Source: Escherichia phage SUT_E520
Sequence record: OQ990040
Reading direction: 5' to 3' (one strand)
DNA length: 64,000 nucleotides
Shown piece by piece: positions 64 through 54,099 of the stretch. Under the pieces are notes generated by a model. The model did not search any database. It was given only the letters and a program-made list of their open reading frames with translations, and was not told the DNA's origin. Both the position numbers and the translations under genes were made by a program. Position 1 is the stretch's first letter; each line of letters opens with the position of its first letter.

Positions 64-2163
64 TTAGGTAAGGCGTTGAATTATAAGTTTAATATTTGGT
101 AAGCATGCTTTCATGCCAATTATATTGCTCATAGAGGATTCTAACCAAATAGAGATATTATTATTTCCATCATTTCTCATATAATATGTTAGAGTATAGT
201 AACCCGTTTGACCTACTGATCCCGGCAACCCAGATACCCAGTACGGAGTTGGAGTATACCCAGCAGCCTGTAATTTACAAGCATTTACTACAGTACCTTT
301 AATAGTAAAAAATGGTACATATTCTCCTGCAGGTAGGGACAATATTTGGTGAAGTTTTTTATCGATAGTATTGCCACCCATTCTGAACCTACTATCTCCA
401 TATTCGGCGCCTTTAGATAGCATTTCCGTAGGATTAAAGCAGCCAATACCTCCTGCAGACAACCATGTGTCATCCAGGAACTCCATAGTACATACAATTG
501 CGCCATTTCTACTACTATTAAGATCTAGTCCCACGGTGCCAACATGCACGGAACCATTACCCTGAAATACTATGTTACCAGATAGTACAGTACTTCCGCT
601 ACCACCTAGAAGTCTTAAAGGTAAAAGATTCTCACTCCAAACATCTCCATAATTGCTGCCTATTTTTGGAGGATTACTAGAAACATACCAAGATGCTGAA
701 GGTAAAAAGTTATAAATACTAACTACATTAGTATTTAAACCACCAACGTTACCACCNNNNNNNNNNNNNNNNNNNNNNNNNNNNNNNNNNNNNNNNNNNN
801 NNNNNNNNNNNNNNNNNNNNNNNNNNNNNNNNNNNNNNNNNNNNNNNNNNNNNNNNGAAACATACCAAGATGCTGAAGGTAAAAAGTTATAAATACTAAC
901 TACATTAGTATTTAAACCACCAACGTTACCACCTTTAATACTTGGTGCGTTATTGCTTTCCGTAGTGGGCAGCCCAAATGTTGCTATGCCAGAAACTCCA
1001 GTAGAGGGGGCACCCATACTCAAGTTACACCCAACATCACGAAAATCAGCTCTGCTACCTACATTAAAGTTTTTCTCAACAAAGTTAATAAACTTCCATG
1101 ACGTATTATTAACATTAACCCCTTTAATAATAAACTCTCTTGGGCTAAGTTTAATATCATTGCCAGTAAATAGCCCACTATCAATACTGTATCCTGAGCC
1201 ATTGTATACTAGATTGGTAACATACCAAGTAATTTTAGATGGATAAATACCGAGGTGCTCACTATATATACCTATAGGCCCATTAGCAGCATCATTCGGA
1301 TCACCCATACTTTCCCAATAAGCATAGTTAGTGGGATCAGCACGTGCGAAACCTACAGAGTACTTAGGAGCCGAGGGATTGCTAGGGTTATCTATAAAGT
1401 TAAGAGCCCCAGAACTAGAAGCACCGTGCACAGCTCCAGCAGTGGTATAGTTAGGCCCTTCCATACCGTAAAGAACTCTATTGCAAGATCTACCACGAAC
1501 ATATATGGCGTTAAATCCAAAGTTTCTAGCTCCGGGATGCCTAACGTAGTCGCTAGGGATAGTTATGGATCCTGAGCTGGGCACAATATATCCTGAACCA
1601 TCCCAGGCAGACTTATAAAGAGCGGCACCACCTAAGTACATTGCACTAGATGCAAATCCTCTACGCCCACTAAAGGCGCCAAACATATGCTGACATCCAG
1701 TACCATCTCTAAGCTTCTGGGGAATAGTTCCACTAGTTCCACTGTTAAAATAACCTACATCAAGGGATAGATCAGCACTAGCTGTTATTTGTGTTTTTAA
1801 GCCACCCTGGGACATGACCTGTGGATTTATAATTCCGTACGCCTTAGCACCTACCCCCATAGACATACCGGATAACATATGTCTAGAGCCATCTGAGAAC
1901 TCAATCTCCGTCAGCACAACTCTATTAGGATCATTATTATGTAACTGGGTAATTCTGCTAGGCATATCAGACCAGTAGTAATCTCCAGCACCTTGATCTA
2001 GCCTTAACCCTGTGGAGTGAGTTTCTGTTATGATAACATGGGGCATATCTGAATGGAATATGGTCTGAGAGTCAGGATTAATATGTTGATTAGTATCTCC
2101 GCCACTACCCCTGCGCAGAGAGAGTATAGATTTATTATTTAGCTTGCCAGCGAAAAAACTCAT
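64..2163 (-). CDS. oad: receptor-binding tail protein, pb5-like (FhuA-binding RBP); frame spans a 100-N scaffold gap with duplicated flanks, true length about 640 aa
   Basis: 699-aa ORF; N-terminus MSFFAGKLNNKSILSLRRGSGG and overall Gly/Ser/Asn-rich composition match my recollection of T5 pb5; divergently adjacent to an Llp-like lipoprotein gene as in T5; 33 X plus a repeated 27-aa stretch are a scaffolding artefact. Confidence 0.55.
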   Translation of the reverse strand: MSFFAGKLNNKSILSLRRGSGGDTNQHINPDSQTIFHSDMPHVIITETHSTGLRLDQGAGDYYWSDMPSRITQLHNNDPNRVVLTEIEFSDGSRHMLSGMSMGVGAKAYGIINPQVMSQGGLKTQITASADLSLDVGYFNSGTSGTIPQKLRDGTGCQHMFGAFSGRRGFASSAMYLGGAALYKSAWDGSGYIVPSSGSITIPSDYVRHPGARNFGFNAIYVRGRSCNRVLYGMEGPNYTTAGAVHGASSSGALNFIDNPSNPSAPKYSVGFARADPTNYAYWESMGDPNDAANGPIGIYSEHLGIYPSKITWYVTNLVYNGSGYSIDSGLFTGNDIKLSPREFIIKGVNVNNTSWKFINFVEKNFNVGSRADFRDVGCNLSMGAPSTGVSGIATFGLPTTESNNAPSIKGGNVGGLNTNVVSIYNFLPSASWYVXXXXXXXXXXXXXXXXXXXXXXXXXXXXXXXXXXGGNVGGLNTNVVSIYNFLPSASWYVSSNPPKIGSNYGDVWSENLLPLRLLGGSGSTVLSGNIVFQGNGSVHVGTVGLDLNSSRNGAIVCTMEFLDDTWLSAGGIGCFNPTEMLSKGAEYGDSRFRMGGNTIDKKLHQILSLPAGEYVPFFTIKGTVVNACKLQAAGYTPTPYWVSGLPGSVGQTGYYTLTYYMRNDGNNNISIWLESSMSNIIGMKACLPNIKLIIQRLT
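757..856. other. scaffold gap (100 N) with about 77-bp duplicated flanks (680-756 equals 857-933)
   Basis: run of n; identical sequence gaaacataccaagatgctgaagg...accaccaacgttaccacc on both sides. Confidence 0.95.
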
Positions 2164-4369: not shown

Positions 4370-4469
4370 NNNNNNNNNNNNNNNNNNNNNNNNNNNNNNN
4401 NNNNNNNNNNNNNNNNNNNNNNNNNNNNNNNNNNNNNNNNNNNNNNNNNNNNNNNNNNNNNNNNNNNNN
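4370..4469. other. scaffold gap (100 N)
   Basis: run of n. Confidence 0.95.
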
Positions 4470-4646: not shown

Positions 4647-5223
4647 GTTGATAACTTATCCCCAAAAGCAAAAATGAAATTTTCCTAGTTATCCACTTGA
4701 CTTTTATTTTCCAGTGGATAACTACTTATTTTATGAAATAAATTAATTGACTTTTATTTGTTAGTATGCATCGGAAAGATAGCAGACTAATAATTGCTAG
4801 AATGATAATCATGCTGGTGGATTGTAACGACCTGAATTATTAGCAGACTATTAATCACGGAAAAATCTCATTAGCCAACTAACTATTTCATGATATATAA
4901 TATACATATAAATTAATGAGAAATAATAACTATAAGAAATCATCTAGCTAAGTGAGAACCACTATCATTTAAGTTATACACAAAGTTATCCACAGCACTT
5001 TTTGACTTGACACGATAGGCGGCGNNNNNNNNNNNNNNNNNNNNNNNNNNNNNNNNNNNNNNNNNNNNNNNNNNNNNNNNNNNNNNNNNNNNNNNNNNNN
5101 NNNNNNNNNNNNNNNNNNNNNNNNTATACAGTAGGATAAGCTGTTGATAAGTCTGTTGATAACGCCTCAAAATGGCTAGGATTTTGTCAAGTCAAATCGT
5201 GCTGTTGATAAGTCTGTGGATAA
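4647..5223. promoter_or_regulatory. cluster of DnaA-box-like 9-mers (TTATCCACA and one-mismatch variants), both orientations
   Basis: perfect TTATCCACA at 4986-4994 and its reverse complement at 5215-5223; near-consensus boxes at 4647-4664, 4689-4697, 4713-4721, 5142-5150, 5154-5162, 5203-5211. Confidence 0.45.
5025..5124. other. scaffold gap (100 N)
   Basis: run of n. Confidence 0.95.
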
Positions 5224-21826: not shown

Positions 21827-22223
21827 GTTCTTCTCTCCGACGTTTAGATTCTTTCATCATATGAGCTGCTACAACTTCGTGGTAGTAGTCATTAATGTTA
21901 TCTTCTGGCAAGAAATGCTTAATAGTCTCTAGCTGACAAATAACTCGATGAAGATGGTTATTTGGTAGACACAATTTTATGCCTGCAACAAATCCAGAGA
22001 AGCCTGGAACACTGAACATGGGTTGGGCTTCTACTCTACCTTCAGGGTTGATATTAAGCTCAATTGAGATACCCATTTTCATACTATAAAGCTGGCAATA
22101 TTCTCCATTACCAGACCTTGACCAAACAGTGAAATCCTCATCAATTTGATCTTGGATTTCTGTAATTGCAAATTTAATTCTAGGGTCTAAATTATTCATC
22201 TTCACCTTCAAAGTCGCAATCAT
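21804..22223 (-). CDS. hypothetical protein (139 aa)
   Basis: ORF in gene string. Confidence 0.4.
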   Translation of the reverse strand: MIATLKVKMNNLDPRIKFAITEIQDQIDEDFTVWSRSGNGEYCQLYSMKMGISIELNINPEGRVEAQPMFSVPGFSGFVAGIKLCLPNNHLHRVICQLETIKHFLPEDNINDYYHEVVAAHMMKESKRRREEREKTKHQ

Positions 22224-22557
22224 AACGACAAGTAAAAGAACTGGAGCTATTAGTACGTTGGGTGGTTATTTCACCGCGTTTGCTAATAGTAATGGCTGGA
22301 GTAGAGAAGTTTTTATTAGTATAGATTTCTACTTTACCATTACGTTCCTTAACATCACGAACTTTACCATACTCGGTAATAATGCCGTTCTGTTGGACTT
22401 TAACATTACCATTTTTCATAGAAACTTTGGTAGACGCCAGAGAACCGAAACTAACTGCGGAGATCATCAGTGCAATAATAAACTTATTCATCTTCATCCT
22501 CCCCACTACAATCACGACATACATCATAATCATTGAAAGAACGTTCGTGAGCTTCAC
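22192..22557 (-). CDS. secreted small protein (signal peptide; true start probably internal Met)
   Basis: MKMNKFIIALMISAVSFGSLAS signal-like segment. Confidence 0.35.
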   Translation of the reverse strand: MKLTNVLSMIMMYVVIVVGRMKMNKFIIALMISAVSFGSLASTKVSMKNGNVKVQQNGIITEYGKVRDVKERNGKVEIYTNKNFSTPAITISKRGEITTQRTNSSSSFTCRYDCDFEGEDE

Positions 22558-22765
22558 ACCACCAAGAACAAGAATCGCAGAGGAACATTTCGGTTTTCTC
22601 CAGTGCTTGACCTAAAAGATCATCAGCTTCCTCAGCAGTAATCTTCAATCCGCACACATCTGCCACACGTTCTTTAATTAAACGACCTGCTTCGTGGTAA
22701 GACATACAGGTTCCAGCAACATCATGCTCAAGAACATGAACAGCACAGTCTAGACGAGTTTTCAT
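22484..22765 (-). CDS. Cys-rich acidic protein (93 aa), possible Zn-binding
   Basis: CDSCSWWC, CRDC motifs. Confidence 0.4.
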   Translation of the reverse strand: MKTRLDCAVHVLEHDVAGTCMSYHEAGRLIKERVADVCGLKITAEEADDLLGQALEKTEMFLCDSCSWWCEAHERSFNDYDVCRDCSGEDEDE

Positions 22766-22795
22766 TTCAAACCTCTCTCATCAATTTATAAACAT

Positions 22796-22824
22796 ATTAT
22801 AGCAAGAAAAGAGAGGTTTAGCAA
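22796..22824 (-). promoter_or_regulatory. T5-type early sigma70 promoter (minus strand)
   Basis: revcomp of 22819-22824 is TTGCTA; revcomp of 22796-22801 is TATAAT; 17-bp spacer. Confidence 0.55.
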
Positions 22825-22841
22825 ATGAATTATTTCAGAAT

Positions 22842-23189
22842 TTAGTCATAGCACCACCATAACCCACGCTTACGCATGTCATGATCGCGATTATAGTCGT
22901 AATTTTCTGGATCTTTCATCACGCGGTGAAGTTCTTGACGATTCCCTTGACGAACCATTTTATTAGAGTGCCACTTAACATTCTTACTAATGGAATTCCA
23001 GTTATAACCATCCTTTTTCTCATTACGAATGGTTGCTTCCTTCATTTCTTTTTTGATGTCGTCCCAGGATTTGGCATAAATAACACGAATCCAGTAGCCA
23101 TTTTCTTTGAAGAAAGAATATTCTTGAGAGAAGTGTTCTTTAGACTTCCACCACTGATCACCAGATTGTTTACGATAAGTACGGCTCAT
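22842..23189 (-). CDS. hypothetical basic protein (115 aa)
   Basis: ORF in gene string. Confidence 0.4.
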   Translation of the reverse strand: MSRTYRKQSGDQWWKSKEHFSQEYSFFKENGYWIRVIYAKSWDDIKKEMKEATIRNEKKDGYNWNSISKNVKWHSNKMVRQGNRQELHRVMKDPENYDYNRDHDMRKRGLWWCYD

Positions 23190-23310
23190 ATTACCTCCAT
23201 TAAGTCTTTTAAATTAACCTAATGTGGATGAATTTTATTATACATATATTATGTACCTTTATACAGAAAAACCCCAGACTACTTATTCAATAGCTGGGGT
23301 TTGTTATTAA

Positions 23311-23625
23311 TTACAGATCGGGGCGTTCATCTTCGGAATAGCCTGAGCTGATTCCTTCTCCGAATCCTACAAAGCCATCAAATTCATCATTTGAGATGCC
23401 CATAATCATTGCTTCCATTTTCCTAATCTCCGAAATTTTCATGCCTGCTTTACTATTCTTATAATATTTGCGAGGGTTCCCGCACATCCAACAAGAACAG
23501 ATGCAAGGAGTAGTAGTGATAATACCTAACCGCTTAGGGCTTTCTTCATGTGGAAAGACTGTCCAATACTTCTTGCGGTTGTTCTTCACACGTTGCCGGT
23601 GATGGCGTCTTAATGCTCGATCCAC
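23311..23625 (-). CDS. Cys-rich protein (104 aa)
   Basis: TPCICSCWMCGNPRKYY motif. Confidence 0.4.
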   Translation of the reverse strand: MDRALRRHHRQRVKNNRKKYWTVFPHEESPKRLGIITTTPCICSCWMCGNPRKYYKNSKAGMKISEIRKMEAMIMGISNDEFDGFVGFGEGISSGYSEDERPDL

Positions 23626-23706
23626 ACATTTCTCCTAAAACTTGGGAGATAAACGGAGTTTGCTCGACTACCTCACGTAGTTCGGAGAAATCGTACCCAA
23701 ACCCCA

Positions 23707-24075
23707 TTACATCGCCTGAGTAAATGTACGACTAATAACGTCGTTCTGTTGTTCACGAGTCAGTGCGTTAAATCGAACAGCGTAGCCAGAGACACGGATG
23801 GTCAACTGAGGATATTTTTCAGGATGTTTCTGCGCATCCAAAAGCTGATCACAGCTTAACACATTGACATTTAGGTGCTGACCACCTTCGATTTGAGGGG
23901 CGACTTCCACTTTGACTTCACGGAAGGCTTCGGGATCGAATTGTGGTGTGATACCTTCTAGATCTTCAACTAGAACTTTCTGTTTAAGTTCACCGTTGTC
24001 GGAGTATAGCTGAATAATCTGATTTTCATGAACAAGGTTAATTACGCCAGATTTAAGATTTTGATATGCTTTCAT
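23707..24075 (-). CDS. grcA: autonomous glycyl radical cofactor GrcA/YfiD-like
   Basis: C-terminal [35 protein letters not shown] closely matches the E. coli GrcA glycyl-radical region (RVSGYAV). Confidence 0.7.
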
Positions 24076-24117
24076 TAGATCTCCCCGATGTTAGAATTTG
24101 GCTCAGCTATTTATTCT

Positions 24118-24312
24118 TTATACTTTTCCATAGTATACGGAAACTGTCTTACCAGTTTGGTTCATGACATATGCTACTTCATCTTCTTTTAAAAAGATGG
24201 CTTGGTCTACTCCAACTATAGCCAATCTTTTATTTCTAGGATTAAAGCTTACACTTTTGCCTGTATGAATCTGTTCCCCATTCTTGGCTGACATTATTTT
24301 AATTGTTAACAT
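24118..24312 (-). CDS. hypothetical protein (64 aa)
   Basis: ORF in gene string. Confidence 0.3.
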   Translation of the reverse strand: MLTIKIMSAKNGEQIHTGKSVSFNPRNKRLAIVGVDQAIFLKEDEVAYVMNQTGKTVSVYYGKV

Positions 24313-24349
24313 AGCTGCTCCTAAAGTTAGCTATCTCTAGCTCTTTTAA

Positions 24350-24425
24350 TGGTAGTTAGTAGTGGATTTGAACCACTGTAGTCGCTCCGTATGAAGGAGG
24401 TGCATAACCACTCTGCCAACTAACT
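24350..24425 (-). tRNA. tRNA with CAU anticodon (Met, fMet or Ile2)
   Basis: 7-bp acceptor AGTTAGT/ACTAACT, T-arm AGTGG-TTCAAAT-CCACT, anticodon loop TTCATAC, encoded CCA. Confidence 0.65.
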
Positions 24426-24592
24426 AGTTAATTCTTTATAGGTTAGATCTAGAAGATCTTTCTTACTGATAAGTCCTTCTCTATATTGGTCAATAAACAT
24501 ATCTATTCTAGAGTTCTCTGAGACTTCTATATCAGAAAGTTCAGCAAATATTTTTGCAAGTTTATCAATATCTTCCATACATAACCTTAATT

Positions 24593-24669
24593 TGGTACTC
24601 CGGGAGGGATTTAAACCCCCGATCTCTCGGTTATCAGCCGAGTGCTTTAGATCGCTAAGCTACCGAAGC
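24593..24669 (-). tRNA. tRNA-Ile (anticodon GAU)
   Basis: acceptor GCTTCGG/CCGGAGT with G-U pairs, anticodon arm CTCGG-CTGATAA-CCGAG, T-loop TTTAAAT, CCA. Confidence 0.7.
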
Positions 24670-24670
24670 A

Positions 24671-24898
24671 TTAACATTTTGCAGCAGAACGTTTGCCATT
24701 TCTAGGTGCACCTGGAAGTCGTGCACGTTCTGCCATTCTTCGCTTAATCTTTGAGATATTTTCTAGTGTTTGTTCTTCAGGCTTAATACCTGAAACACTA
24801 CACCACTGATTACCATCCCATGCGGTAATGATCATAACACCATTACTCATGATCTTTTCTGTAAAAGTAATCCTCATTATAGCAACTCGTCTAAGCAA
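24671..24898 (-). CDS. hypothetical protein (75 aa)
   Basis: ORF between tRNA genes. Confidence 0.3.
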   Translation of the reverse strand: MLRRVAIMRITFTEKIMSNGVMIITAWDGNQWCSVSGIKPEEQTLENISKIKRRMAERARLPGAPRNGKRSAAKC

Positions 24899-25170
24899 GA
24901 GGTATATTTAAGTTTACCATCTTTATCTACTTTGATTTCGACTTCCGCTCGTGGTACTTGACGAACTACACCATGAATCATCTTATAGCGAATGCCTTTA
25001 GCTGGTTCATGCTCTTTTGGAAATACTTGCTTAACCGTTACTACCTTAAAACCCTCACGCGGTGTTAACACTACTACTTGATCACCTTCTTTGATCTTCC
25101 AAGAGCCAGGAAATTCATAGGTATAGCGTTGACCACCAGTTTGGAACACAACAGAAAGATAACGTTTCAT
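24877..25170 (-). CDS. hypothetical protein (97 aa)
   Basis: ORF; T5-type promoter motif immediately upstream at about 25180-25215. Confidence 0.4.
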   Translation of the reverse strand: MKRYLSVVFQTGGQRYTYEFPGSWKIKEGDQVVVLTPREGFKVVTVKQVFPKEHEPAKGIRYKMIHGVVRQVPRAEVEIKVDKDGKLKYTSCLDELL

Positions 25171-25237
25171 TTGGCTTCCCTCTCATTAATTTATATAAAT
25201 ATTATAACAATAAATAAGAGAGAAAGCAAATGAATTT

Positions 25238-25405
25238 TTAATAAAGTTTAGTCACTTCATAAACTATACTACGAGATTCTTTATTACGTTCTATTAAATT
25301 AGAATATGCTTTTTCAGCTTCATTTTTAGTATTAAAGTCTATAACGTGGGAGGTATTCGCTCTATTTGATTGACTATACCAGATAACTACTAATAATTTA
25401 AACAT
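25238..25405 (-). CDS. hypothetical small protein (start trimmed to avoid tRNA overlap)
   Basis: ORF 25238-25432 overlaps the tRNA at 25420; internal Met used. Confidence 0.25.
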   Translation of the reverse strand: MFKLLVVIWYSQSNRANTSHVIDFNTKNEAEKAYSNLIERNKESRSIVYEVTKLY

Positions 25406-25419
25406 AATAGTCCTTAAGT

Positions 25420-25506
25420 TGGTGCTGGGCACAGGATTCGAACCTGTAACGGGATTACTCCTCCTGATTACAAATCAGGTGCATTCAACCATTCTGCCAA
25501 CCCAGC
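25420..25506 (-). tRNA. tRNA, anticodon UGU (Thr-type) with long variable arm, 87 nt; isotype uncertain
   Basis: acceptor GCTGGGT/GCCCAGC, anticodon arm CCTGA-TTTGTAA-TCAGG, T-arm ACAGG-TTCGAAT-CCTGT, CCA. Confidence 0.5.
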
Positions 25507-25671
25507 AGAACCCGTTATTTCAACGGGATTTCTTTTTCAATAACAGGAGACTTATCAGTCATAACCGCCATTGCCATTTGTTGTAGAAATTCAAAGGTGA
25601 AGGCTACACGTTCTTCACCAATCTCTACTTCTACACGTTTCTTTTGTTTATCGATCTTGACTTTTAGGTTA

Positions 25672-25923
25672 TCAGCCATTAGAGAGTACAGTACTGGTAG
25701 TTGGCAATACTACAGATGAAGCAACAGTGTTTAAATGCTTTCTCCAGTCTAGGTTAAATTGTTTTCGAAACTCTTCATAAGGTTCTTCTGGATAAAAGCT
25801 AAAACCTCCTTTCTCATCATTCAGGATAACAGAGCCGTCAGTTTGTTCGTATGCTCGGTATGTTTCTCCAATAACAATAACTCGTTTTTCGGTACTTTTA
25901 TTACGAAACTCAAAAACGTGCAT
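25672..25923 (-). CDS. hypothetical protein (83 aa)
   Basis: ORF between tRNA genes. Confidence 0.35.
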   Translation of the reverse strand: MHVFEFRNKSTEKRVIVIGETYRAYEQTDGSVILNDEKGGFSFYPEEPYEEFRKQFNLDWRKHLNTVASSVVLPTTSTVLSNG

Positions 25924-25939
25924 AATGTTTCCTTAAAGT

Positions 25940-26015
25940 TGGAGCGGCTAGAGGGAATCGAACCCTACTCAGCGAGGCTTGGAAGGCCTGCGGCACAACC
26001 CGTGTGCTTAACCGC
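25940..26015 (-). tRNA. tRNA-Gly (anticodon UCC)
   Basis: anticodon loop CTTCCAA; 3' end TAGCCGC-T-CCA resembles E. coli tRNA-Gly(UCC). Confidence 0.65.
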
Positions 26016-26023
26016 TTATTGTT

Positions 26024-26099
26024 TGGCTGGAGAAGGAGGAATCGAACCTACCATTAACGGAGTCAAAGGCCGTTGTGCTAACCGTTACACTACTCTCCA
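26024..26099 (-). tRNA. tRNA-Gln (anticodon UUG)
   Basis: U1-A72, G73, 3' end CCAGCCA as in E. coli tRNA-Gln; anticodon loop CTTTGAC. Confidence 0.7.
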
Positions 26100-26105
26100 A
26101 TTATT

Positions 26106-26181
26106 TGGCTGGGATGCCACGGATCGAACGTGGAACCTTCGGAGTCAGAGGCCGACGATCTGCCAATTGATCTACATCCCA
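26106..26181 (-). tRNA. tRNA-Gln (anticodon CUG)
   Basis: acceptor TGGGATG/CATCCCA, G73, T-arm CCACG-TTCGATC-CGTGG, anticodon loop CTCTGAC. Confidence 0.7.
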
Positions 26182-26193
26182 ATAATTTTTATT

Positions 26194-26388
26194 CTACGGA
26201 AAAATTGTTGTTGGCTCAGATTCTTCCAAACGTTTGCCTTCATGATCAACACGAATAACGCCGCATCCTTCGCAAATCACAACTGCACCATAACCTTCTT
26301 TGACCTCAGCTTCTGTAATCAAACCAGAAAGATCACCAGTATCTTTACCCCACATATCAATGGAGCATTGTTTGCAGAAATCAGCCAT
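26194..26388 (-). CDS. small Zn-ribbon protein (64 aa)
   Basis: CKQC ... CEGC motif pairs. Confidence 0.35.
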   Translation of the reverse strand: MADFCKQCSIDMWGKDTGDLSGLITEAEVKEGYGAVVICEGCGVIRVDHEGKRLEESEPTTIFP

Positions 26389-26413
26389 ATTTTATTTCCT
26401 ATTTAAGTTAATT

Positions 26414-26490
26414 TGGGGTGGCTAGTGGAATTCGAATCCACATAGGCCTGATTCACAATCAGGATCATTAACCAATTATGATATAGCCAC
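26414..26490 (-). tRNA. tRNA-His (anticodon GUG)
   Basis: perfect acceptor GTGGCTA/TAGCCAC, D-arm TCAT/ATGA, anticodon arm CCTGA-TTGTGAA-TCAGG, CCA. Confidence 0.8.
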
Positions 26491-26856
26491 AATTGAAAAC
26501 TCGCAGGGTTAGCGAAACCTTCCTCAATTAGCATGTTCTAGAATACTAATCAAGTTATCTCCTATTGCACGCAGCTCAAGACGAGTACGAATTTTCAATT
26601 GTGGCGGCTCTCAGAAACTCTTCTACTCTAGTCTTAGCAGCTTACTCCCGAACGCATGTCGGGGAAGTCTTACTAAGCGCATCAAATAGCACCGTTACAC
26701 TTTGAGCCATTGGTGTATCAAGAAGCAGAAGGACTTGAACCTTCACGAGATAGACCATTTATCTCAGCCGCTTTATGAGGTATGTTGCAGGGAGTGGATG
26801 TTCCCTATAAACCTTTTAGGCAGCCCCGTCTACCGATTCCGGCATACTTCAGGATT

Positions 26857-26951
26857 TGGAGGTAGGTAAGGGGATCGAACCCTTACACCGTATCACTACG
26901 ATCAACCGATTTCAAGTCGGAGTCCAGCGCCAGCCATTGGATTGACCTACC
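26857..26951 (-). tRNA. tRNA-Ser (anticodon UGA), type II, 95 nt
   Basis: acceptor GGTAGGT/ACCTACC, T-arm AAGGG-TTCGATC-CCCTT, anticodon loop CTTGAAA, long variable arm. Confidence 0.65.
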
Positions 26952-26963
26952 ATATAAATTGTT

Positions 26964-27054
26964 TGGCGGAAGAGGAGAGATTTGAACTCTCAAGCCGTTT
27001 TACCAGTCAGCCACTTTCCAAGCGGTTTTCGTCGCCAATTCGATTTGCTCTTCC
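26964..27054 (-). tRNA. tRNA-Ser (anticodon GGA), type II, 91 nt; D-region atypical
   Basis: perfect acceptor GGAAGAG/CTCTTCC, G73, T-arm GAGAG-TTCAAAT-CTCTC, anticodon loop TTGGAAA. Confidence 0.55.
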
Positions 27055-27166
27055 AATAATAAGATGATGCCTCTATCACACCAGGCAGTTACGCCTCGCT
27101 GGGATTCGAACCCATTAAAACAGCTCAACCGAGATAGTAGGTTTAATTTACTCTGACCATCAAATT

Positions 27167-27243
27167 TGGTGCGTGACAAGGGATTCGAACCCTCAAAACC
27201 CGACTTCTAAGGACGGTATGTATGCCAATTCCATCAATCACGC
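27167..27243 (-). tRNA. tRNA with UAG anticodon (Leu-type) but short variable arm; A73
   Basis: acceptor GCGTGAT/GTCACGC, T-arm GAGGG-TTCGAAT-CCCTT, anticodon loop CTTAGAA with one stem mismatch. Confidence 0.5.
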
Positions 27244-27248
27244 ATGTT

Positions 27249-46248: not shown

Positions 46249-48582
46249 TTATAATTGACAACCACCGGATGCACATCCAGCAGCAGCTTCTTCACCTGCA
46301 CCTCCACCATTTGCAGTATTGAAGTTTGCATAGTAGAAAGTTTTCCACCCATACTTAACAGCAGTCATGAAATCACGAACTACTACTGGGCCAGGAATGA
46401 TTTCATTCTCAAACTTGGTGTAGTCATAGTACATATTCGTACTGATAGACTGACTGAAGAATTTCTGCATAGTTGCTACCCACTTGATCCACTCGATACG
46501 ATCTACATCATAAGCCAGTTTATAGCTCATTAACGTTTCCCAATCGGTTGCACCTGGAGCAATTGCAATTACTTTATTTACTGCACTACCCTTGATAGAT
46601 ACAATCTTACGAGGTGGTTCGATAGAGTTAGTAACACCTAACAGAACAGAAGAACTTTCTCCCGGCATCTGAGCAGTCAGAACAGAGTTACGCATACCAT
46701 ATTTCAGAATATCTGCACGCAGAGACTCCCAATCCATTTCTAGACCTACGGATACCAGTTCATCAACAGTTTTCTTGTACGTGTCGATTACCAGAATTCC
46801 TTTAGATGGTTTAGTACGATCAAACCACTCACATGCACCCTGTTCTTTAGCTAGGCGTACAGAGGCTTTATGCAGGAAGTAAGACAGTTTTTCAGCCTCA
46901 CGGTGAATCCAGTTACGAGCTTCAATACCTTCATAAGCCAGACCTTCTGCTGCCATTGCACCTGCTGCGTTCATCAGGCCAATACCAACATTACGACGTT
47001 TCTTAGCCGTATATTCCATAGTTGGGAACGGATAATCCTGAATTTCAATAATTGTATCAACGAATTTCAGAAGGATGTAGCAAGTTTTTTCCCACTCAGC
47101 CAGAGATTCCATGCGTCCAAGTACAACACCGCCTAAGTTACACAGAGATACTTCACCAATATCCTCCGGCTTCATTTGATCAAGTTGTTCTTTTGTTTTA
47201 TACAGTTCCGTGATATGATGGAACGGGCGTGTAGGCTGAGTAATTTCAACACAAAGGTTTGTCATACGGATCGGATCAAGGAAGTTACCGTGACGATTAG
47301 ATTCCCCGATGTGATGAGCATACATACGTCCTGTTTCCATTCGGATACGTAGCCAAGTATCTAGGATTTCTTTTGCAGAGACTTTAGGAGCTGCTGGAAC
47401 TGTTTTTCCTTCGTGGTCGATCTTTGTAAGAGATGCCACACGTTTCTCCGCTGCCACGTAGATTTCTTCAAATTTAGCCTCGTCATCACTATAAAACGCT
47501 TCATGAACTTCTGGAGCATAGAAGTATGACATTAGCGTAATATCTTCGTTTTTAAGATAACGTTTTAACAAAAGATTGTTAAAGCTCAGAGAATAGTCCA
47601 TCTTATCGATTTTATTCTCATCTGTAGCACGTTGTTGCTTAACCTGCATCAATTGAATGATTTCAGGGTCGAAGTACGTATAAGACACTGTGGCAGAACC
47701 ACCACGAGTTTGCTGAGTATTGGCCTTTACTGAGCGGTCAATGTGTCGATAATATGGCAGTTTTCCGGAATGCGGGAATGCCCCATTTCGCACCGGATCA
47801 GCAATTGATCGGCTTTCAAGATGATACCCGATTCCCGCTCTGGCTGCGACCATTTTGAAGACGATGTGCTCGGCGGTGTCGATTGAATCCAACGTGTCAG
47901 TGGAATCCACGAGGCAGCAACTAGCAAATCCACGGTCACTAGAGCGCAGACCAACCAGTGGCGGCGTAGGAATGTTGATTTTGTGGAGTGACATTGCGTT
48001 GTAGAGGTCGATTGCATCTAGAATTGTCCAGTTAGGTTGAGATAACATCGCCATTGCCATACCCATGTAGGCAAACTGCGGAGTTTCATAGATTTCACCA
48101 GTGGCTATGTTACGACGGGAATACTTATCAAAGAACTGTTTCAGCCCACCACTAGTAAAAAGACGGTCACGATCATGGTCGATAACCTGATTCAGAGCTT
48201 CAAATTGCTCATCGGTAATCCATGCACTCATGTCTTCCCATGCACCTACGCTAACCATATGGTCATGGAAGAAGCGCAGAGAAGGTGGTTCGAAGGAATC
48301 ATAGAGGCGTTTACGCATTTGCGCAAGACGTAATTCCTTTGCTGGCACATCATATGCTGGATTATCTTTGATAAGACTTTCAGCAGCTTTAATTAATGCA
48401 TCCATCAGAGTGTCGGAATCTACAACCCCTTTAGGCAGAGTTTTTTGAGCAGCCATAGTAATGGCTGACCAACTTACATCAACTGTTTTGCAACCATACT
48501 CCGCCCAACCATTGAGTTTTTCAGGAGCAAAGTCTTCTACAGTACCGTCACGTTTAATTACTTTTTCAATGCGATGGCTCAT
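46249..48582 (-). CDS. nrdA: ribonucleotide reductase class Ia alpha subunit (start at internal ATG 48582)
   Basis: ATP-cone-like N-terminus MSHRIEKVIKRDGTVEDF after AAGGAAAG RBS; typical NrdA length and C-terminal Cys-containing tail. Confidence 0.75.
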   Translation of the reverse strand: MSHRIEKVIKRDGTVEDFAPEKLNGWAEYGCKTVDVSWSAITMAAQKTLPKGVVDSDTLMDALIKAAESLIKDNPAYDVPAKELRLAQMRKRLYDSFEPPSLRFFHDHMVSVGAWEDMSAWITDEQFEALNQVIDHDRDRLFTSGGLKQFFDKYSRRNIATGEIYETPQFAYMGMAMAMLSQPNWTILDAIDLYNAMSLHKINIPTPPLVGLRSSDRGFASCCLVDSTDTLDSIDTAEHIVFKMVAARAGIGYHLESRSIADPVRNGAFPHSGKLPYYRHIDRSVKANTQQTRGGSATVSYTYFDPEIIQLMQVKQQRATDENKIDKMDYSLSFNNLLLKRYLKNEDITLMSYFYAPEVHEAFYSDDEAKFEEIYVAAEKRVASLTKIDHEGKTVPAAPKVSAKEILDTWLRIRMETGRMYAHHIGESNRHGNFLDPIRMTNLCVEITQPTRPFHHITELYKTKEQLDQMKPEDIGEVSLCNLGGVVLGRMESLAEWEKTCYILLKFVDTIIEIQDYPFPTMEYTAKKRRNVGIGLMNAAGAMAAEGLAYEGIEARNWIHREAEKLSYFLHKASVRLAKEQGACEWFDRTKPSKGILVIDTYKKTVDELVSVGLEMDWESLRADILKYGMRNSVLTAQMPGESSSVLLGVTNSIEPPRKIVSIKGSAVNKVIAIAPGATDWETLMSYKLAYDVDRIEWIKWVATMQKFFSQSISTNMYYDYTKFENEIIPGPVVVRDFMTAVKYGWKTFYYANFNTANGGGAGEEAAAGCASGGCQL

Positions 48583-48724
48583 TTGGCTTTCCTTTTTATA
48601 GTTATCAGGATTTAAGGAATATTCTACTTTATTATCGGTCATTAGGCAAATAAAATTTTCTGATAGAAAAGGCCCGAGTATTTTCATACCCAGGCCCTGT
48701 ATATTACCAGTCTAGCTTTTTAGC

Positions 48725-48947: not shown

Positions 48948-49709
48948 TTACACCTTCCCCATGTCTTTAAAAATATCATAGAATGCTTTAGACTCAACAG
49001 AACGAACGTTATCAATCAATTCGATCATTGAGAATGGGGCATTTTCGTATTTTTCATAGACTTCCATAAGGAGTGCTAGACCTGAGTCACCTTTAATGTC
49101 TTTCTGAGCTATATCTCCGCAGATAATTAAACGGCAGTCTTGTCCTACACGAGTTAGGAGACAAATCATTGCCTCAACGGAAATATTCTGAGCTTCATCG
49201 ACAATTACATAGGAGTTGTTGAAAGTTCTGCCACGAGCATGTTCGACAGCCAAAAATTTAATTTTCTGACGTTCGACATATCCTTTATACGCATGATCGC
49301 CGATGGCCCATTTCATACCATCAGCTATTGGCTCCAACCAAGGCTCTAGCTTTTCCGCTAGATCACCAGGAAGCATACCAAGAGACTTACCTAGAGGTTC
49401 ATTAGGACGTACGAGAATCACTTGCTCAATATCTGAGTGAATGTCTGCGAGTTCCTGAGCTGCAAGAACGGACGGAATAAAGGTTTTACCAGTACCTGGC
49501 TCACCGATACCCACAGTCACTGTGTTGTTCTTGATCATATTGATATATGATTTTTGCTCGCGGTTTTTACCTACTAGGGATTTAGCAACTGGGTTAGCGT
49601 AATCATTAGAAAAATCAGCCTGAATTACGTTATTCTCATATTTGTTGCCACGCTTTCTTGAACCATTACGGTTCTCTCTTTTTTGACGTGCTTTTCCCAT
49701 AAATAACAC
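48948..49709 (-). CDS. phoH: PhoH-like ATPase
   Basis: Walker A GEPGTGKTF, Walker B VIVDEAQN. Confidence 0.7.
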   Translation of the reverse strand: MLFMGKARQKRENRNGSRKRGNKYENNVIQADFSNDYANPVAKSLVGKNREQKSYINMIKNNTVTVGIGEPGTGKTFIPSVLAAQELADIHSDIEQVILVRPNEPLGKSLGMLPGDLAEKLEPWLEPIADGMKWAIGDHAYKGYVERQKIKFLAVEHARGRTFNNSYVIVDEAQNISVEAMICLLTRVGQDCRLIICGDIAQKDIKGDSGLALLMEVYEKYENAPFSMIELIDNVRSVESKAFYDIFKDMGKV

Positions 49710-49994
49710 TCCTATAGTGTACTTCGCTAACAGAGGATCAACAAAAAGATCTTGTTTATCAACTTACAAATATATTATACCAATATATACAGTAAAAAGC
49801 AACTACAATTTTAAATAAGCCTATGATATTGCATTTAAATAAAAAATTTGCTTGCTTTTAACGTGAGATGTGTGATACTAGATAATCATTTTATATCGCG
49901 TGCACGAGTGTGTGATTATACAATTTTTAATAGAGATTGGCAAATAAAATTTTTTGACTCAGATCATGTTACAGAACTTTATAGTAAAATATTG

Positions 49995-50023
49995 TTGACA
50001 TCCGCCCTCGAATGAGTTATAAT
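49995..50023 (+). promoter_or_regulatory. strong sigma70 promoter upstream of nrdD (-35 TTGACA, 17 bp, -10 TATAAT)
   Basis: TTGACA at 49995-50000; TATAAT at 50018-50023; GAGAAGGAGAG RBS before ATG 50053. Confidence 0.65.
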
Positions 50024-50052
50024 AGTAGTCTTAGTTAGAGAAGGAGAGTATA

Positions 50053-51927
50053 ATGAATCGCAATGAAGAACTAAAGTATAAAGAAATGCAGGCGTTAATT
50101 AGAAACTGCAAAGAGATTATCGAAGGGTCAGCAGATGAAGAGCTGCTGTTTAATAATGCTAATAAACCCTCAGAACGTTTCCCTACACAAAGGGATATGC
50201 TTGCAGGTGAATTGAGTAAGTATCTGATTCTAGAAGAAATGCCAATTCAGATTCGAAATGCTCATATGATTGGGGATATTCATTTCCATGATGCTGATTA
50301 TGCTGCATTAGGCATGACTAACTGTTGTCTGGTAGCTTTGGAAGATATGTTGAAGAATGGTATGAAGGTTGGTAATGCTGAAATTAGCACTCCAAACTCT
50401 ATCACTACTGCGGCGGCTATTACTGCTCAGATTATCACTCAGGTTAGCTCCCATCAGTATGGTGGTACTTCTGTAGACCGCCTTGATGAAGTATTAGCCC
50501 CTTATGTTCGTAAATCATATGACAAAAATCATGCGTTTGCAAAACGTTGGACTAAGGATGAAGCCAAAGCATCCGTAATGGCTACGGAGATGACTGAAAA
50601 GGAAGTCTATGACGCTTGTCAGGGTTTAGAATATGAAATCAATACCATGTTCAACTCTAACGGTCAGAGTCCATTTATTACCTTTGGTTTTGGTCTAGGA
50701 ACTTCTTGGGAAGCACGTCTAGTACAGAAAGCAATACTGAAAGTACGCATGGATGGTTTAGGTATCAATAAACGTACAGCTATCTTCCCGAAACTGGTAT
50801 TTGTACTTCGTGATGGTGTTAACATGAAACCAGGAGATGTTAATTATGACATCAAGAAGTTAGCTATGAAATGTACTGCTGAACGTATGTATCCAGATTA
50901 TATCAGCTATGACAAAGTTGTAGAAGTTACTGGAGACTATAAAGTTTCTATGGGCTGTCGTTCATTCCTAGCTGCTACAGAAGATGGTGAAACTGCCGGT
51001 CGTAATAACTTAGGTGTTGTTTCTGTAAACTTGCCTAGAATTGCTATCGAAGCTGAAGGAAATATTGACCTATTTTTTGATTTGCTTGAACTGCGTGTGG
51101 ATACAGCGTTAAAAGCATTGGAGTGGAGAGTTGATCGCTTAAAATACATCCAAGCTAAAGCTGCACCCATCCTCTATATGTCAGGAGCCTTTGGGTTACG
51201 CTTGGAGCCTGATGAATATGTATTCGATCATTTCTATAATCGTGCTTCTGTATCTCTAGGGTATATTGGCTGCCATGAAATGCTACAGTTCATGTTTGGC
51301 AAAGATATAGACACAATGTCCGAGACCTGCATCAAGTTTGTTCAGCGTGTATTGCAGTACATGCGGGATAGAGTCGATCAGAAGAAGGAAGAAACTAAGT
51401 TAGGTTATAGCCTGTATGCTACACCATCAGAATCCCTATGTGATCGCTTTTGTCGTCTAGACCGTGAATATTTCCCGGAACATGAAGATATTCTGTCCAA
51501 AGGATACTACACTAACTCTCACCACCTTGATGTGGAACGTAAAGTTGCTCCTAACGTGAAATTTGATTATGAATCTAACTTTACTCCGATTGCTTCTGGT
51601 GGGTGTATTTCCTACGTAGAATTACCGGATATGAAACGATTCCCAGATGCACTGGAATGGGTTATTAATTATGCTGCTAGTAAGGTTCATTACTTCGGTA
51701 TTAATACTCCAGTGGATTCTTGCGGTAAATGTGGATTCTTAGGTGAAACAATAGCATCCGAAGATGGATTTAAGTGCCCTATCTGTGGTAATCATGACCC
51801 CGAAACTCTTGAAGTAACTCGTCGAGTTTGTGGGTATCTTGGAAATCCGGGTGCTCGTCCATTTAACCCCGGCAAACAGCACGAGGTGATGGGCAGAGTG
51901 AAACATCAGGATATTCGAGCTAAATAA
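50053..51927 (+). CDS. nrdD: anaerobic ribonucleoside-triphosphate reductase (class III)
   Basis: 624 aa; C-terminal Cys cluster CGKCGF...CPICG and glycyl-radical motif RVCGYLG. Confidence 0.75.
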   Translation: MNRNEELKYKEMQALIRNCKEIIEGSADEELLFNNANKPSERFPTQRDMLAGELSKYLILEEMPIQIRNAHMIGDIHFHDADYAALGMTNCCLVALEDMLKNGMKVGNAEISTPNSITTAAAITAQIITQVSSHQYGGTSVDRLDEVLAPYVRKSYDKNHAFAKRWTKDEAKASVMATEMTEKEVYDACQGLEYEINTMFNSNGQSPFITFGFGLGTSWEARLVQKAILKVRMDGLGINKRTAIFPKLVFVLRDGVNMKPGDVNYDIKKLAMKCTAERMYPDYISYDKVVEVTGDYKVSMGCRSFLAATEDGETAGRNNLGVVSVNLPRIAIEAEGNIDLFFDLLELRVDTALKALEWRVDRLKYIQAKAAPILYMSGAFGLRLEPDEYVFDHFYNRASVSLGYIGCHEMLQFMFGKDIDTMSETCIKFVQRVLQYMRDRVDQKKEETKLGYSLYATPSESLCDRFCRLDREYFPEHEDILSKGYYTNSHHLDVERKVAPNVKFDYESNFTPIASGGCISYVELPDMKRFPDALEWVINYAASKVHYFGINTPVDSCGKCGFLGETIASEDGFKCPICGNHDPETLEVTRRVCGYLGNPGARPFNPGKQHEVMGRVKHQDIRAK

Positions 51928-51934
51928 GCTAATC

Positions 51935-51970
51935 AGCCGGGTTGCTAGTCGACCTGGCTTTTATTTTATT
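51935..51970 (+). terminator. rho-independent terminator candidate after nrdD
   Basis: hairpin agccgggt...acctggct followed by TTTTATTTTATTT. Confidence 0.45.
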
Positions 51971-51998
51971 TGCTTTCAGCCAAAAATTTATATATAAT
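51970..51998 (+). promoter_or_regulatory. T5 PN25-like early promoter (-35 TTGCTT, 17 bp, -10 TATAAT)
   Basis: TTTATTTGCTTTCAG and TATAATAGATTTATAAATTTGAGAGGAG closely resemble the classical T5 PN25 promoter/RBS. Confidence 0.65.
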
Positions 51999-52026
51999 AG
52001 ATTTATAAATTTGAGAGGAGAAAGGT

Positions 52027-52407
52027 ATGGAATTAAAGCCCTATATAGTTGAGTCTACATGTGGTGGTTTCCATCTTGGCGTAGACGATCTTAGAGAAGC
52101 TATTTTTGCATCTACTGGAGATTATTCCCATCTAGAGGGTATTGGATATTCATCAATTATTGGTGATTGGGTAGAAACAAATCTAGATGTATCACCATAT
52201 AACTCAGATTGCTTGTTTGACGAGGATGAGGATGAAATAAAGTATGATATTGAATTTGTTTATAATAGAGTATTAAAAGTATACCAACGTAATCCCGAGG
52301 GATACGAAGATATTACTAAAGGTATTAAACAGTATCTTAAAGATGTATACTATAATTTTTCTGATGAAGACCTAGAAACAGTTGCAGTGGAGTTTAATAA
52401 TGGCTAA
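52027..52407 (+). CDS. hypothetical acidic protein (126 aa)
   Basis: first ORF after PN25-like promoter. Confidence 0.5.
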   Translation: MELKPYIVESTCGGFHLGVDDLREAIFASTGDYSHLEGIGYSSIIGDWVETNLDVSPYNSDCLFDEDEDEIKYDIEFVYNRVLKVYQRNPEGYEDITKGIKQYLKDVYYNFSDEDLETVAVEFNNG

Positions 52408-52606
52408 GAATGTAAAACATCTTAAATATCGCTTAATTTACAATGGACGTATGGAAACAGAAGACCTGGCCCAATTAGCTATTAATTCTAACGAGGTTAC
52501 AGTGCGTGCGCTGGCAATTGAAAAGTTGCGTGCCTCTTATGAAAATCGTGTTATGGAACTAGAGGAGAAACTTTATGGCATTCTCGAAGCCGATGCTACC
52601 AGATAA
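52400..52606 (+). CDS. hypothetical protein (68 aa)
   Basis: ATG overlapping upstream stop. Confidence 0.4.
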   Translation: MAKNVKHLKYRLIYNGRMETEDLAQLAINSNEVTVRALAIEKLRASYENRVMELEEKLYGILEADATR

Positions 52607-52796
52607 GGGTTTAAACGCCGCTTTGGAAAACGCATTAATGCAGCACTGGGAAACTGGCTATAAGGATGGTGTTGAATCCTGCGCTACTATGCTAGAAGTT
52701 ATTGCTAATACCTTAATGGAGAAAGGCAATAAAGAATTAGCTGAGCTATTAGACAGTATTGGGCAAAACTTCAGAGAACAGGTGAAAAATGCGTAG
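52575..52796 (+). CDS. hypothetical protein (73 aa)
   Basis: ORF in operon. Confidence 0.4.
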   Translation: MAFSKPMLPDKGLNAALENALMQHWETGYKDGVESCATMLEVIANTLMEKGNKELAELLDSIGQNFREQVKNA

Positions 52797-54097: not shown

Positions 54098-54099
54098 AT

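What the first reader, a model, noticed from the sequence alone, without database searches (positions are those of the whole stretch)
23707..24075. GrcA-like glycyl-radical spare part and NrdD present, but no radical-SAM activase seen
The phage encodes a GrcA/YfiD homolog and a class III reductase (50053-51927), both glycyl-radical proteins, yet no ORF with a CxxxCxxC radical-SAM motif is evident in this window. The phage may rely on host NrdG/PflA for activation, with GrcA rescuing oxygen-damaged host pyruvate formate-lyase during infection.
Basis: partly seen in the sequence, partly recalled or inferred. Interest (0 to 1): 0.4.

Follow-up and report, generated by a model that had tools for sequence, protein, structure and literature searches.

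The report
T5-like phage GrcA spare part
A T5-like coliphage carries a small "spare part" for the host's oxygen-damaged pyruvate formate-lyase and an anaerobic ribonucleotide reductase, has no activating enzyme for either and so must borrow the host's; this is real but already documented.

Summary
The window is a scaffold of a T5-like phage, 100% identical to Escherichia phage SUT_E1520. ORF 23707-24075(-) is a 122-aa GrcA/YfiD-type protein with the radical glycine (G97) in an exact RVSGYAV motif. It is 77% identical to the PflB C-terminus and 52% identical over its full length to T4 Y06I, the phage spare part validated in vitro. ORF 50053-51927(+) is a complete formate-type NrdD without an ATP cone.

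No glycyl-radical activase exists in the window, in the complete 108-kb genome, or in phage T5. Database counts indicate the whole T5-like clade lacks NrdG. One correction: a literal CX3CX2C string does occur, in the 104-aa ORF just downstream of grcA. Its first Cys is not conserved, the protein is too small, and homologues occur without grcA, so it is not a radical-SAM enzyme.

Dependence on host PflA and NrdG, each present in 5426/5426 complete E. coli genomes, is the best-supported reading. It is inferred, not shown.

None of this is new. T5.056 was flagged as a glycyl-radical domain protein, related records annotate GrcA, and nrdD-only phages were described in 2013. Interest is low. The one modestly novel idea is that GrcA keeps host PFL supplying formate, the reductant NrdD needs.

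The parts
23707..24075 (-). grcA-like gene: a 122-aa stand-alone glycyl-radical domain protein, the orthologue of T5.056
   Evidence: Pfam Gly_radical 4.1e-17 over residues 62-103. 73% identical to E. coli GrcA 54-127, 77% to PflB 699-760, and 52% over the full length to T4 Y06I. Best PDB hits by sequence and by fold are 6OWR, then PFL. dN/dS against T5 is 0.068.
23776..23796 (-). Codons for RVSGYAV (residues 94-100); the radical glycine G97 is at 23785-23787
   Evidence: Invariant in the alignment with GrcA, PflB and T4 Y06I and in 28 homologues. Identical to the 7-mer PFL-AE substrate peptide of PDB 3CB8 (PMC10665898). In the AF2 model G97 sits at the tip of the hairpin E92-95/E98-101.
24081..24086 (-). 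Shine-Dalgarno GGGGAG, 5 nt upstream of the grcA ATG
   Evidence: Read directly from the sequence.
23546..23707 (-). 53-aa ORF whose ATG overlaps the grcA stop (TAATG). Its first ~27 codons are homologous to the N-terminus of a 121-aa protein of Yersinia phage phiR2-01
   Evidence: Sequence. tblastn of P0074: residues 1-27 match this frame and residues 25-121 match the frame of the next ORF.
23311..23625 (-). 104-aa basic, Cys-rich small protein (T5.055 / ORF053 family, phrog_4499). It is the only real ORF with a literal CX3CX2C string (C41, C45, C48). It is not an activase
   Evidence: Motif scans. No Pfam or NCBIfam hit. phrog_4499 at 7e-41, function unknown. H8, H9, C43, C45 and C48 are invariant, but C41 is Ala or Thr in some homologues. 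Homologues stand alone, without grcA, in Erwinia and Psychrobacter phages.
23267..23300 (-). Rho-independent terminator (ACCCCAG...CTGGGGT followed by TTTT) that ends the grcA transcription unit
   Evidence: Read from the sequence. T5 has an annotated rho-independent terminator at the same place after T5.055.
49995..50023 (+). Consensus sigma-70 promoter of nrdD: TTGACA, 17 nt, TATAAT
   Evidence: Read from the sequence. T5 has an annotated promoter directly upstream of nrdD.
50053..51927 (+). nrdD: class III (anaerobic) ribonucleotide reductase, 624 aa, without the N-terminal ATP cone
   Evidence: 54% identical to E. coli NrdD. It keeps C91, M300 and C302 (E. coli C175, M382, C384), the Zn cysteines C557, C560, C575 and C578, and the radical G594.
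51935..51971 (+). Rho-independent terminator directly after nrdD. The gene is monocistronic and no activase is co-transcribed
   Evidence: Read from the sequence. The matching terminator is annotated in T5. The next ORF, 52027-52407, has no Pfam hit.

Best explanation
The phage encodes the two oxygen-labile glycyl-radical polypeptides but neither of the radical-SAM enzymes that install the radical.

The 122-aa protein is a GrcA/YfiD-type spare part. Its C-terminal ~60 residues copy the glycyl-radical loop and last helix of host pyruvate formate-lyase (PflB). Host PflA puts the radical on G97. The activated protein then docks onto PflB whose own C-terminus was cut off by O2, restoring pyruvate -> acetyl-CoA + formate.

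NrdD is a monocistronic early gene whose G594 radical must be installed by host NrdG. It then makes dNTPs anaerobically with formate as reductant.

Shown here: the identity and integrity of both genes, purifying selection on grcA, the absence of any activase from the complete genome, and the universal presence of both activases in E. coli. Inferred: cross-activation by the host enzymes, and the benefit to the phage.
For: - Gene identity.
- An exact RVSGYAV motif, which is the PFL-AE peptide substrate.
- T4 Y06I is activated by E. coli PFL-AE and rescues cleaved PFL (PMC8683613). YfiD 61-127 has the fold of PFL 693-759.
- grcA dN/dS is 0.068, and about 435 phage records carry a copy at least 80% identical.
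- No activase in SUT_E1520 or T5, with a working positive control.
- Record counts: NrdD minus NrdG is 399-126=273 for Salmonella phages and 1057-928=129 for Escherichia phages. The T5-like records number 273 and 130.
- nrdG and pflA are in 5426/5426 complete E. coli genomes.
- The NrdD catalytic, Zn and Gly residues are intact. Its Gly-loop segment is 21/25 identical to E. coli NrdD, against 14/25 for T4 NrdD, which brings its own NrdG (counted by eye from the alignments).
- NrdG is needed only to generate the radical, which then lasts several catalytic cycles (PMC3267527).
Against: - No experiment on a T5-type GrcA or NrdD was found.
- The phage protein scores 120 bits against the NCBIfam GrcA equivalog cut-off of 170, because its N-terminal half is divergent. 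That half of YfiD matters for binding cleaved PFL and for activation.
- T4 keeps its own nrdG, and my unverified recollection is that T4 NrdD needs it. Cross-activation of a phage NrdD by host NrdG is therefore not automatic.
- T5 shuts off host gene expression (A1 annotation), so the activases must already be present at infection. From general knowledge, nrdDG is induced only anaerobically.
Confidence: 0.75

Rival explanations
1. The phage does carry an activase, but a cryptic one: the 104-aa CX3CX2C protein encoded right after grcA (23311-23625), possibly coupled to it translationally through the 53-aa ORF, is a minimal radical-SAM-like activator.
For: It is the only real ORF in the genome with a literal CX3CX2C string. 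It lies in the same transcription unit as grcA. It is the top hit of the activase HMM in T5, though not a significant one (E 0.14, 8.5 bits).
Against: - C41, the first Cys of the string, is Ala or Thr in homologues. The conserved pattern is HH...CxCxxC.
- All 93 family members are 58-121 aa and none has a Pfam domain, against 154-246 aa for NrdG and PflA.
- No Pfam or NCBIfam hit.
- The AF2 model is helical and low-confidence, with no beta/alpha core.
- Homologues stand alone in an Erwinia jumbo phage and a Psychrobacter phage with no grcA nearby.
Confidence: 0.03
2. The GrcA-like protein is not a repair part but a takeover tool. It would compete for PflA, or cap intact or damaged PflB, to redirect or block host fermentation.
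For: It needs the same partners as GrcA. Its N-terminal half differs from the bacterial one. Many T5 early genes are host-takeover functions (general knowledge).
Against: All 40 columns that are invariant across 28 GrcA homologues are kept, including the whole Gly loop and C-terminal helix. Conservation of that kind is what a catalytically competent part requires. The T4 homologue restores PFL activity in vitro.
Confidence: 0.07
3. The GrcA-like protein is a spare part for the phage's own NrdD rather than for host PFL.
For: Both genes are in the same phage. NrdD suffers the same O2 cleavage at its glycyl radical (PMC2795772). It has been speculated that spare parts exist for other glycyl-radical enzymes (PMC8683613).
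Against: The C-terminal 62 residues are 77% identical to PflB and carry RVSGYAV. The NrdD loop is RRVCGYLG and sits next to a Zn-Cys4 site that GrcA lacks. NCBIfam and PDB searches rank formate-lyases first and list no RNR.
Confidence: 0.02
4. Without their activases, both genes are decaying relics with no function.
For: No activase is present.
Against: grcA dN/dS is 0.068. Both ORFs are intact with all catalytic residues. nrdD has a consensus promoter, an RBS and a terminator. Both genes are conserved across roughly 435-460 T5-like records.
Confidence: 0.03

Closest known systems
Bacteriophage T4 Y06I (autonomous glycyl radical cofactor; Wagner et al. 2001)
   Same: A stand-alone phage protein of about 120 aa. 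It aligns over the full length at 52% identity and shares the MKAYQ start and an identical RVSGYAV loop. T4 likewise has no pflA of its own; Y06I is activated by E. coli PFL-AE.
   Different: The last 49 residues of T4 Y06I are identical to E. coli GrcA. The T5-type protein differs there and ends ...RTFTQAM, like PflB (...RTFTQSM). T4 also brings its own NrdG for NrdD; the T5-like phage does not.
E. coli GrcA/YfiD (PDB 6OWR)
   Same: The same C-terminal glycyl-radical module, 73% identical over residues 51-122. It is the top fold match (E 4.9e-6, TM 0.76 normalised to the target).
   Different: The N-terminal ~50 residues are barely alignable, and the score is below the NCBIfam equivalog cut-off (120 against 170). 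The gene is encoded by a virulent phage, among tRNA genes in the early region.
C-terminus of E. coli PflB (residues 699-760)
   Same: 77% identity, and the same Gly loop and terminal helix.
   Different: The phage protein lacks the ~700-residue catalytic barrel and can only act as a replacement part.
nrdD-only phages (T5, SPC35, EPS7 and others; Dwivedi et al. 2013, PMC3653736)
   Same: nrdD together with nrdAB, with phoH between them and no nrdG. This is exactly the arrangement in the window.
   Different: None; the window belongs to this group.

Membership tests
GrcA/YfiD autonomous glycyl radical cofactor (PFL spare part) | Small stand-alone protein (~120-130 aa) whose only recognisable domain is a C-terminal glycyl-radical domain | tested here: met
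   122 aa. Pfam Gly_radical covers residues 62-103 and nothing else matches. The 120 best homologues listed are also short, 67-164 aa and mostly 117-137 aa.
GrcA/YfiD autonomous glycyl radical cofactor (PFL spare part) | Radical glycine in the PFL-type motif RVSGYAV | tested here: met
   G97 lies in R94-V100. The motif is invariant in alignments A1 and A3.
GrcA/YfiD autonomous glycyl radical cofactor (PFL spare part) | The C-terminal ~60 residues mimic PflB 693-759 (beta strand, Gly loop, helix) | tested here: met
   77% identity to PflB 699-760. The AF2 model has H75-83, the hairpin 92-101 and H107-118 at pLDDT 70-83. Foldseek top hits are 6OWR and 2PFL.
GrcA/YfiD autonomous glycyl radical cofactor (PFL spare part) | Score above the curated cut-off of the NCBIfam equivalog model TIGR04365 | tested here: not met
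   120.2 bits against a cut-off of 170, with only residues 50-122 aligned. The experimentally validated T4 Y06I also fails (153.3), so the cut-off is tuned to bacterial GrcA.
GrcA/YfiD autonomous glycyl radical cofactor (PFL spare part) | Radical installed by PflA, and restoration of activity to O2-cleaved PflB | not testable with these tools
   Only precedent is available (T4 Y06I), plus the exact PFL-AE substrate heptapeptide.
Class III ribonucleotide reductase NrdD, formate-dependent type | Full-length match above the curated cut-off | tested here: met
   NF006732: 843.8 bits against 657. TIGR02487: 589 against 326.
Class III ribonucleotide reductase NrdD, formate-dependent type | Radical Gly, Zn-Cys4 site, thiyl Cys, and the Cys/Met pair of the formate-using enzymes | tested here: met
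   G594; C557, C560, C575, C578; C302; C91 and M300. These align to E. coli G681; C644, C647, C662, C665; C384; C175 and M382. The roles of these residues are taken from PMC4493059 and from general knowledge.
Class III ribonucleotide reductase NrdD, formate-dependent type | Cognate activase NrdG encoded with it | tested here: not met
   No NrdG or PflA homologue is in the complete genome. nrdD is monocistronic.
Radical-SAM glycyl-radical activating enzyme (NrdG/PflA), considered for the 104-aa ORF 23311-23625 | An invariant CX3CX2C cluster motif within a beta/alpha core of at least ~150 aa that matches radical-SAM profiles | tested here: not met
   C41 is replaced by Ala or Thr in homologues. 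The protein is 104 aa. No Pfam or NCBIfam hit. The activase HMM is not significant.

The most novel reading that the evidence does not exclude
grcA and nrdD may form one functional pair. T5 destroys the host chromosome, so PflB cannot be resynthesised after infection. Phage GrcA would keep the existing PflB pool working after O2 pulses, and PFL's product formate is the obligatory reductant of the phage's formate-type NrdD, as well as feeding ATP production through acetyl-CoA. On this reading the phage encodes only the stoichiometric, O2-suicidal polypeptides and borrows the two catalytic host activases. Its anaerobic replication would then depend on the host's pre-infection PflA and NrdG levels. 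The evidence is consistent with this: the formate-type residues are present, class III RNRs are reduced by formate, and GrcA-bearing phage records never outnumber NrdD-bearing ones in any host genus. It has not been tested.
Probability: 0.3. Interest if true: 0.4.

Novelty: already known. Interest (0 to 1): 0.15.

Why it matters
The finding illustrates an economical phage strategy for the anaerobic gut: carry the sacrificial, oxygen-labile radical proteins and rely on universally present host activases. If the link from GrcA through formate to NrdD were demonstrated, it would explain why T4-like and T5-like coliphages both keep a PFL spare part. It would also predict that phage yield under microaerobic conditions depends on host pflA, pflB and nrdG, which is relevant to phage therapy in the intestine.

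As a genome observation it adds nothing to existing annotation. It does expose inconsistent product names for this gene in GenBank ('pyruvate formate-lyase', '2-ketobutyrate formate-lyase', 'acetyltransferase-related', 'ribonucleotide reductase subunit', 'hypothetical').

Tried and rejected
- Relaxed Cys-motif scans (CX2CX4C, CX4CX2C, CX5CX2C, CX3CXC) hit only short or antisense segments.
- The sigma-70 and terminator consensus scan around grcA found no more sites than shuffled sequence does, and it missed both real terminators (that of nrdD has a 9-nt loop). I read the terminators by eye instead.
- The AF2 model of the 104-aa protein is low-confidence (pLDDT 53) and was not used for a fold search.
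- Vibrio phage VMJ710 was fetched as a possible T5-like phage with nrdG. It belongs to Mohonavirus, so it served only as a control sequence.
- A literature search for any study of a T5-type GrcA found none: no listed paper holds 'glycyl radical cofactor' together with T5-like terms.
- Look-ups of Vey 2008 and Miller 2003 failed because the papers are not held. I could not verify my recollection that T4 NrdD is not activated by host NrdG.
- An exact intersection of the NrdD+, NrdG- and GrcA+ phage records is not possible with the tools. Only per-genus counts could be compared.

Full report
**What the window is.** Megablast of 22000-26000 and of 49500-54200 gives 100% identity over the full query length to Escherichia phage SUT_E1520 (OQ885479.1, 108,306 bp; Demerecviridae, Tequintavirus). 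About 460 T5-like records match at 80% identity or more. A local alignment shows the window is a scaffold of that genome. It has three runs of 100 N (757-856, 4370-4469, 5025-5124) and re-ordered pieces in the first 5 kb, and it lacks roughly 44 kb, mostly structural genes.

**The GrcA-like ORF.**
- ORF 23707-24075(-) encodes 122 aa and has a GGGGAG Shine-Dalgarno 5 nt upstream of the ATG.
- Pfam finds only a Gly_radical domain (residues 62-103, E 4.1e-17).
- BLASTP gives 73% identity to E. coli GrcA 54-127 and 77% to PflB 699-760. tblastn gives 52% over the whole length to the T4 gene in the vs region, the Y06I protein.
- The radical glycine is present as G97, inside an exact RVSGYAV. This aligns with GrcA G102 and PflB G734 and is invariant in 28 diverse homologues.
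- The best solved-structure matches are YfiD (6OWR, 1.6e-29) and then PFL.
- In an AF2 model the C-terminal module (helix 75-83, hairpin 92-101 with G97 at its tip, helix 107-118) has pLDDT 70-83, while the N-terminal half is less certain. Foldseek returns 6OWR and 2PFL first.
- Against the T5 orthologue T5.056, dN/dS is 0.068 (37 nucleotide changes, 7 amino-acid changes).
- About 435 phage records carry a copy at least 80% identical.
- The NCBIfam GrcA equivalog is the best hit but falls below its cut-off (120 bits against 170). The biochemically validated T4 Y06I also falls below it (153 bits).

**NrdD.**
- ORF 50053-51927(+), 624 aa, passes the NCBIfam NrdD equivalog models (844 bits against 657) and is 54% identical to E. 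coli NrdD.
- It keeps the radical Gly (G594), the four Zn cysteines, the thiyl Cys (C302) and the Cys/Met pair (C91, M300) of the formate-using enzymes.
- It lacks the first ~83 residues of E. coli NrdD, the ATP cone with its VxKRDG signature.
- The gene has a consensus promoter (TTGACA-17-TATAAT, 49995-50023), a strong RBS and its own terminator (51935-51971). T5 is annotated the same way. It is therefore monocistronic. The next ORF (52027-52407) has no Pfam hit.

**Is there an activase?**
- Six-frame scans of the window and of the complete SUT_E1520 genome find CX3CX2C only twice: once in a 41-codon non-coding segment, and once in the ORF at 23311-23625(-).
- phmmer with E. coli NrdG and PflA, and an HMM of four activases, give nothing better than E about 0.9-2 on 1588 translated segments. 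The same holds for the unique 112 kb of phage T5 (best E 0.14, the small Cys protein).
- As a control, an HMM built from only the two E. coli activases finds T4 NrdG at 3.6e-38 and a vibriophage NrdG at 9e-44.
- At database scale, tblastn finds NrdD in 2923 phage records and NrdG in 2273. The per-genus differences are 399-126=273 for Salmonella and 1057-928=129 for Escherichia. These match the numbers of T5-like records (273 and 130), so the whole clade appears to lack NrdG.
- This agrees with the literature. [quoted passage not shown] RNRdb listed 30 phage NrdD against 21 NrdG (PMC2795772).

**The CX3CX2C ORF.**
- The 104-aa protein (T5.055/ORF053 family, phrog_4499) has no Pfam or NCBIfam match.
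- All 93 relatives found are 58-121 aa and none has a Pfam domain.
- An alignment shows R3, A4, R7, H8, H9, R10, C43, C45, C48, P51 and R52 as invariant. C41, the first Cys of the string, is Ala in one homologue and Thr in the Psychrobacter phage copy.
- Homologues stand alone, with no grcA nearby, in Erwinia phage Ea35-70 and Psychrobacter phage D'Alembert.
- The AF2 model is helical and low-confidence.
- The protein is too small and lacks the conserved motif, so it is not a radical-SAM enzyme.
- Incidentally, in Yersinia phage phiR2-01 this protein is 121 aa. Its first 27 residues correspond to the start of the 53-aa ORF that overlaps the grcA stop codon (TAATG). In the window the gene is therefore split by a frame change near 23630.

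**How it most likely works.**
- Established knowledge covers the mechanism. O2 cleaves PFL at Gly734. YfiD and T4 Y06I are activated by PFL-AE and restore activity to the cleaved enzyme. YfiD 61-127 has the fold of PFL 693-759, and its disordered N-terminal half helps binding and activation (PMC8683613).
- PFL-AE binds and acts on the heptapeptide RVSGYAV (PDB 3CB8; PMC10665898), which the phage protein carries unchanged.
- pflA and nrdG are each present in 5426/5426 complete E. coli genomes.
- NrdG is needed only to generate the radical, which then lasts several cycles, and class III RNRs of this type are reduced by formate (PMC3267527, PMC4493059).
- The NrdD Gly-loop segment is 21/25 identical to the E. 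coli enzyme, against 14/25 for T4 NrdD, which has its own NrdG (counted by eye). This is suggestive only.
- From these points I infer that host PflA activates phage GrcA, which repairs host PflB, and that host NrdG activates phage NrdD.
- In T5 the grcA unit runs from promoter P11 through tRNA genes, T5.056 and T5.055 to a terminator in the early region. The window has the matching terminator at 23267-23300.

**Speculative link.** PFL makes the formate that NrdD consumes, and T5 degrades host DNA and shuts off host expression (A1 annotation), so PflB cannot be replaced. GrcA may therefore serve phage dNTP supply as well as energy. This has not been tested.

**Verdict.** Both are already in the public record:
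- T5.056 was flagged through InterPro IPR001150.
- The T4 homologue was characterised in 2001.
- nrdD-only phages were described in 2009 and 2013.

Novelty: already known. Interest: low.

Noticed in passing
window 757-856, 4370-4469, 5025-5124; also 33696-33772: There are three runs of exactly 100 N, and the pieces in the first 5 kb are re-ordered relative to SUT_E1520. A 77-base stretch matches both ends of the linear record. The window is therefore a scaffolded short-read assembly running across the record's arbitrary start. About 8 kb of the reference between the pieces is missing.
   Followed up: partly
window 23546-23707 and 23311-23625 (-): The gene after grcA is split between two reading frames. 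In Yersinia phage phiR2-01 it is a single 121-aa protein (P0074). The upstream 53-aa ORF starts on the grcA stop codon (TAATG), and the 104-aa ORF restarts at a GTG preceded by AGGAG. Whether this reflects an indel with re-initiation or a programmed frameshift is unknown.
   Followed up: partly
window 23311-23625 (-): This is a small, basic phage protein family (RALRRHHRxR...TPCxCSCxMCxxPRK) with invariant HH and CxCxxC. It is probably a metal-binding nucleic-acid-binding protein. It occurs in T5-like phages and in Erwinia, Klebsiella, Achromobacter and Psychrobacter phages. It has no Pfam family and no known function.
   Followed up: partly
window 50053-51927 (+) and 46249-48687 (-): NrdD lacks the N-terminal ATP cone found in E. 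coli NrdD, as T4 NrdD does. The phage NrdA keeps a VIKRDG ATP-cone signature near its N-terminus.
   Followed up: partly
window 24118-24312 (-): A 64-aa ORF (phrog_3909, function unknown) lies between tRNA-Met and grcA. In T5 the tRNA-Met gene sits 14 nt from grcA with no ORF between them, so this is a small insertion or deletion difference within the clade.
   Followed up: no
window 24350-32090 (-): Twenty tRNA genes interspersed with small ORFs, the typical T5 early-region tRNA cluster. grcA sits at its edge.
   Followed up: no
window 23854-23856 (codon 74 of grcA): This phage has Cys at residue 74 (LSCDQ). T5 and the other T5-like homologues in alignment A3 have Arg there (LSRDQ), and more distant homologues have Arg, Lys or Gln. 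The effect of this lineage-specific substitution is unknown.
   Followed up: no
public records of the same gene: Product names for this 122-aa gene are inconsistent: 'hypothetical protein' (SUT_E1520), 'pyruvate formate-lyase', '2-ketobutyrate formate-lyase', 'putative acetyltransferase-related protein', 'ribonucleotide reductase subunit' and 'autonomous glycyl radical cofactor GrcA'. Only the last describes a 122-aa protein correctly.
   Followed up: yes
window 52789-53604 (+), 48948-49709 (-): A Sir2-like ORF lies downstream of nrdD, and a PhoH-like ORF lies between nrdD and nrdA. This is the arrangement described for T5, SPC35 and EPS7.
   Followed up: no
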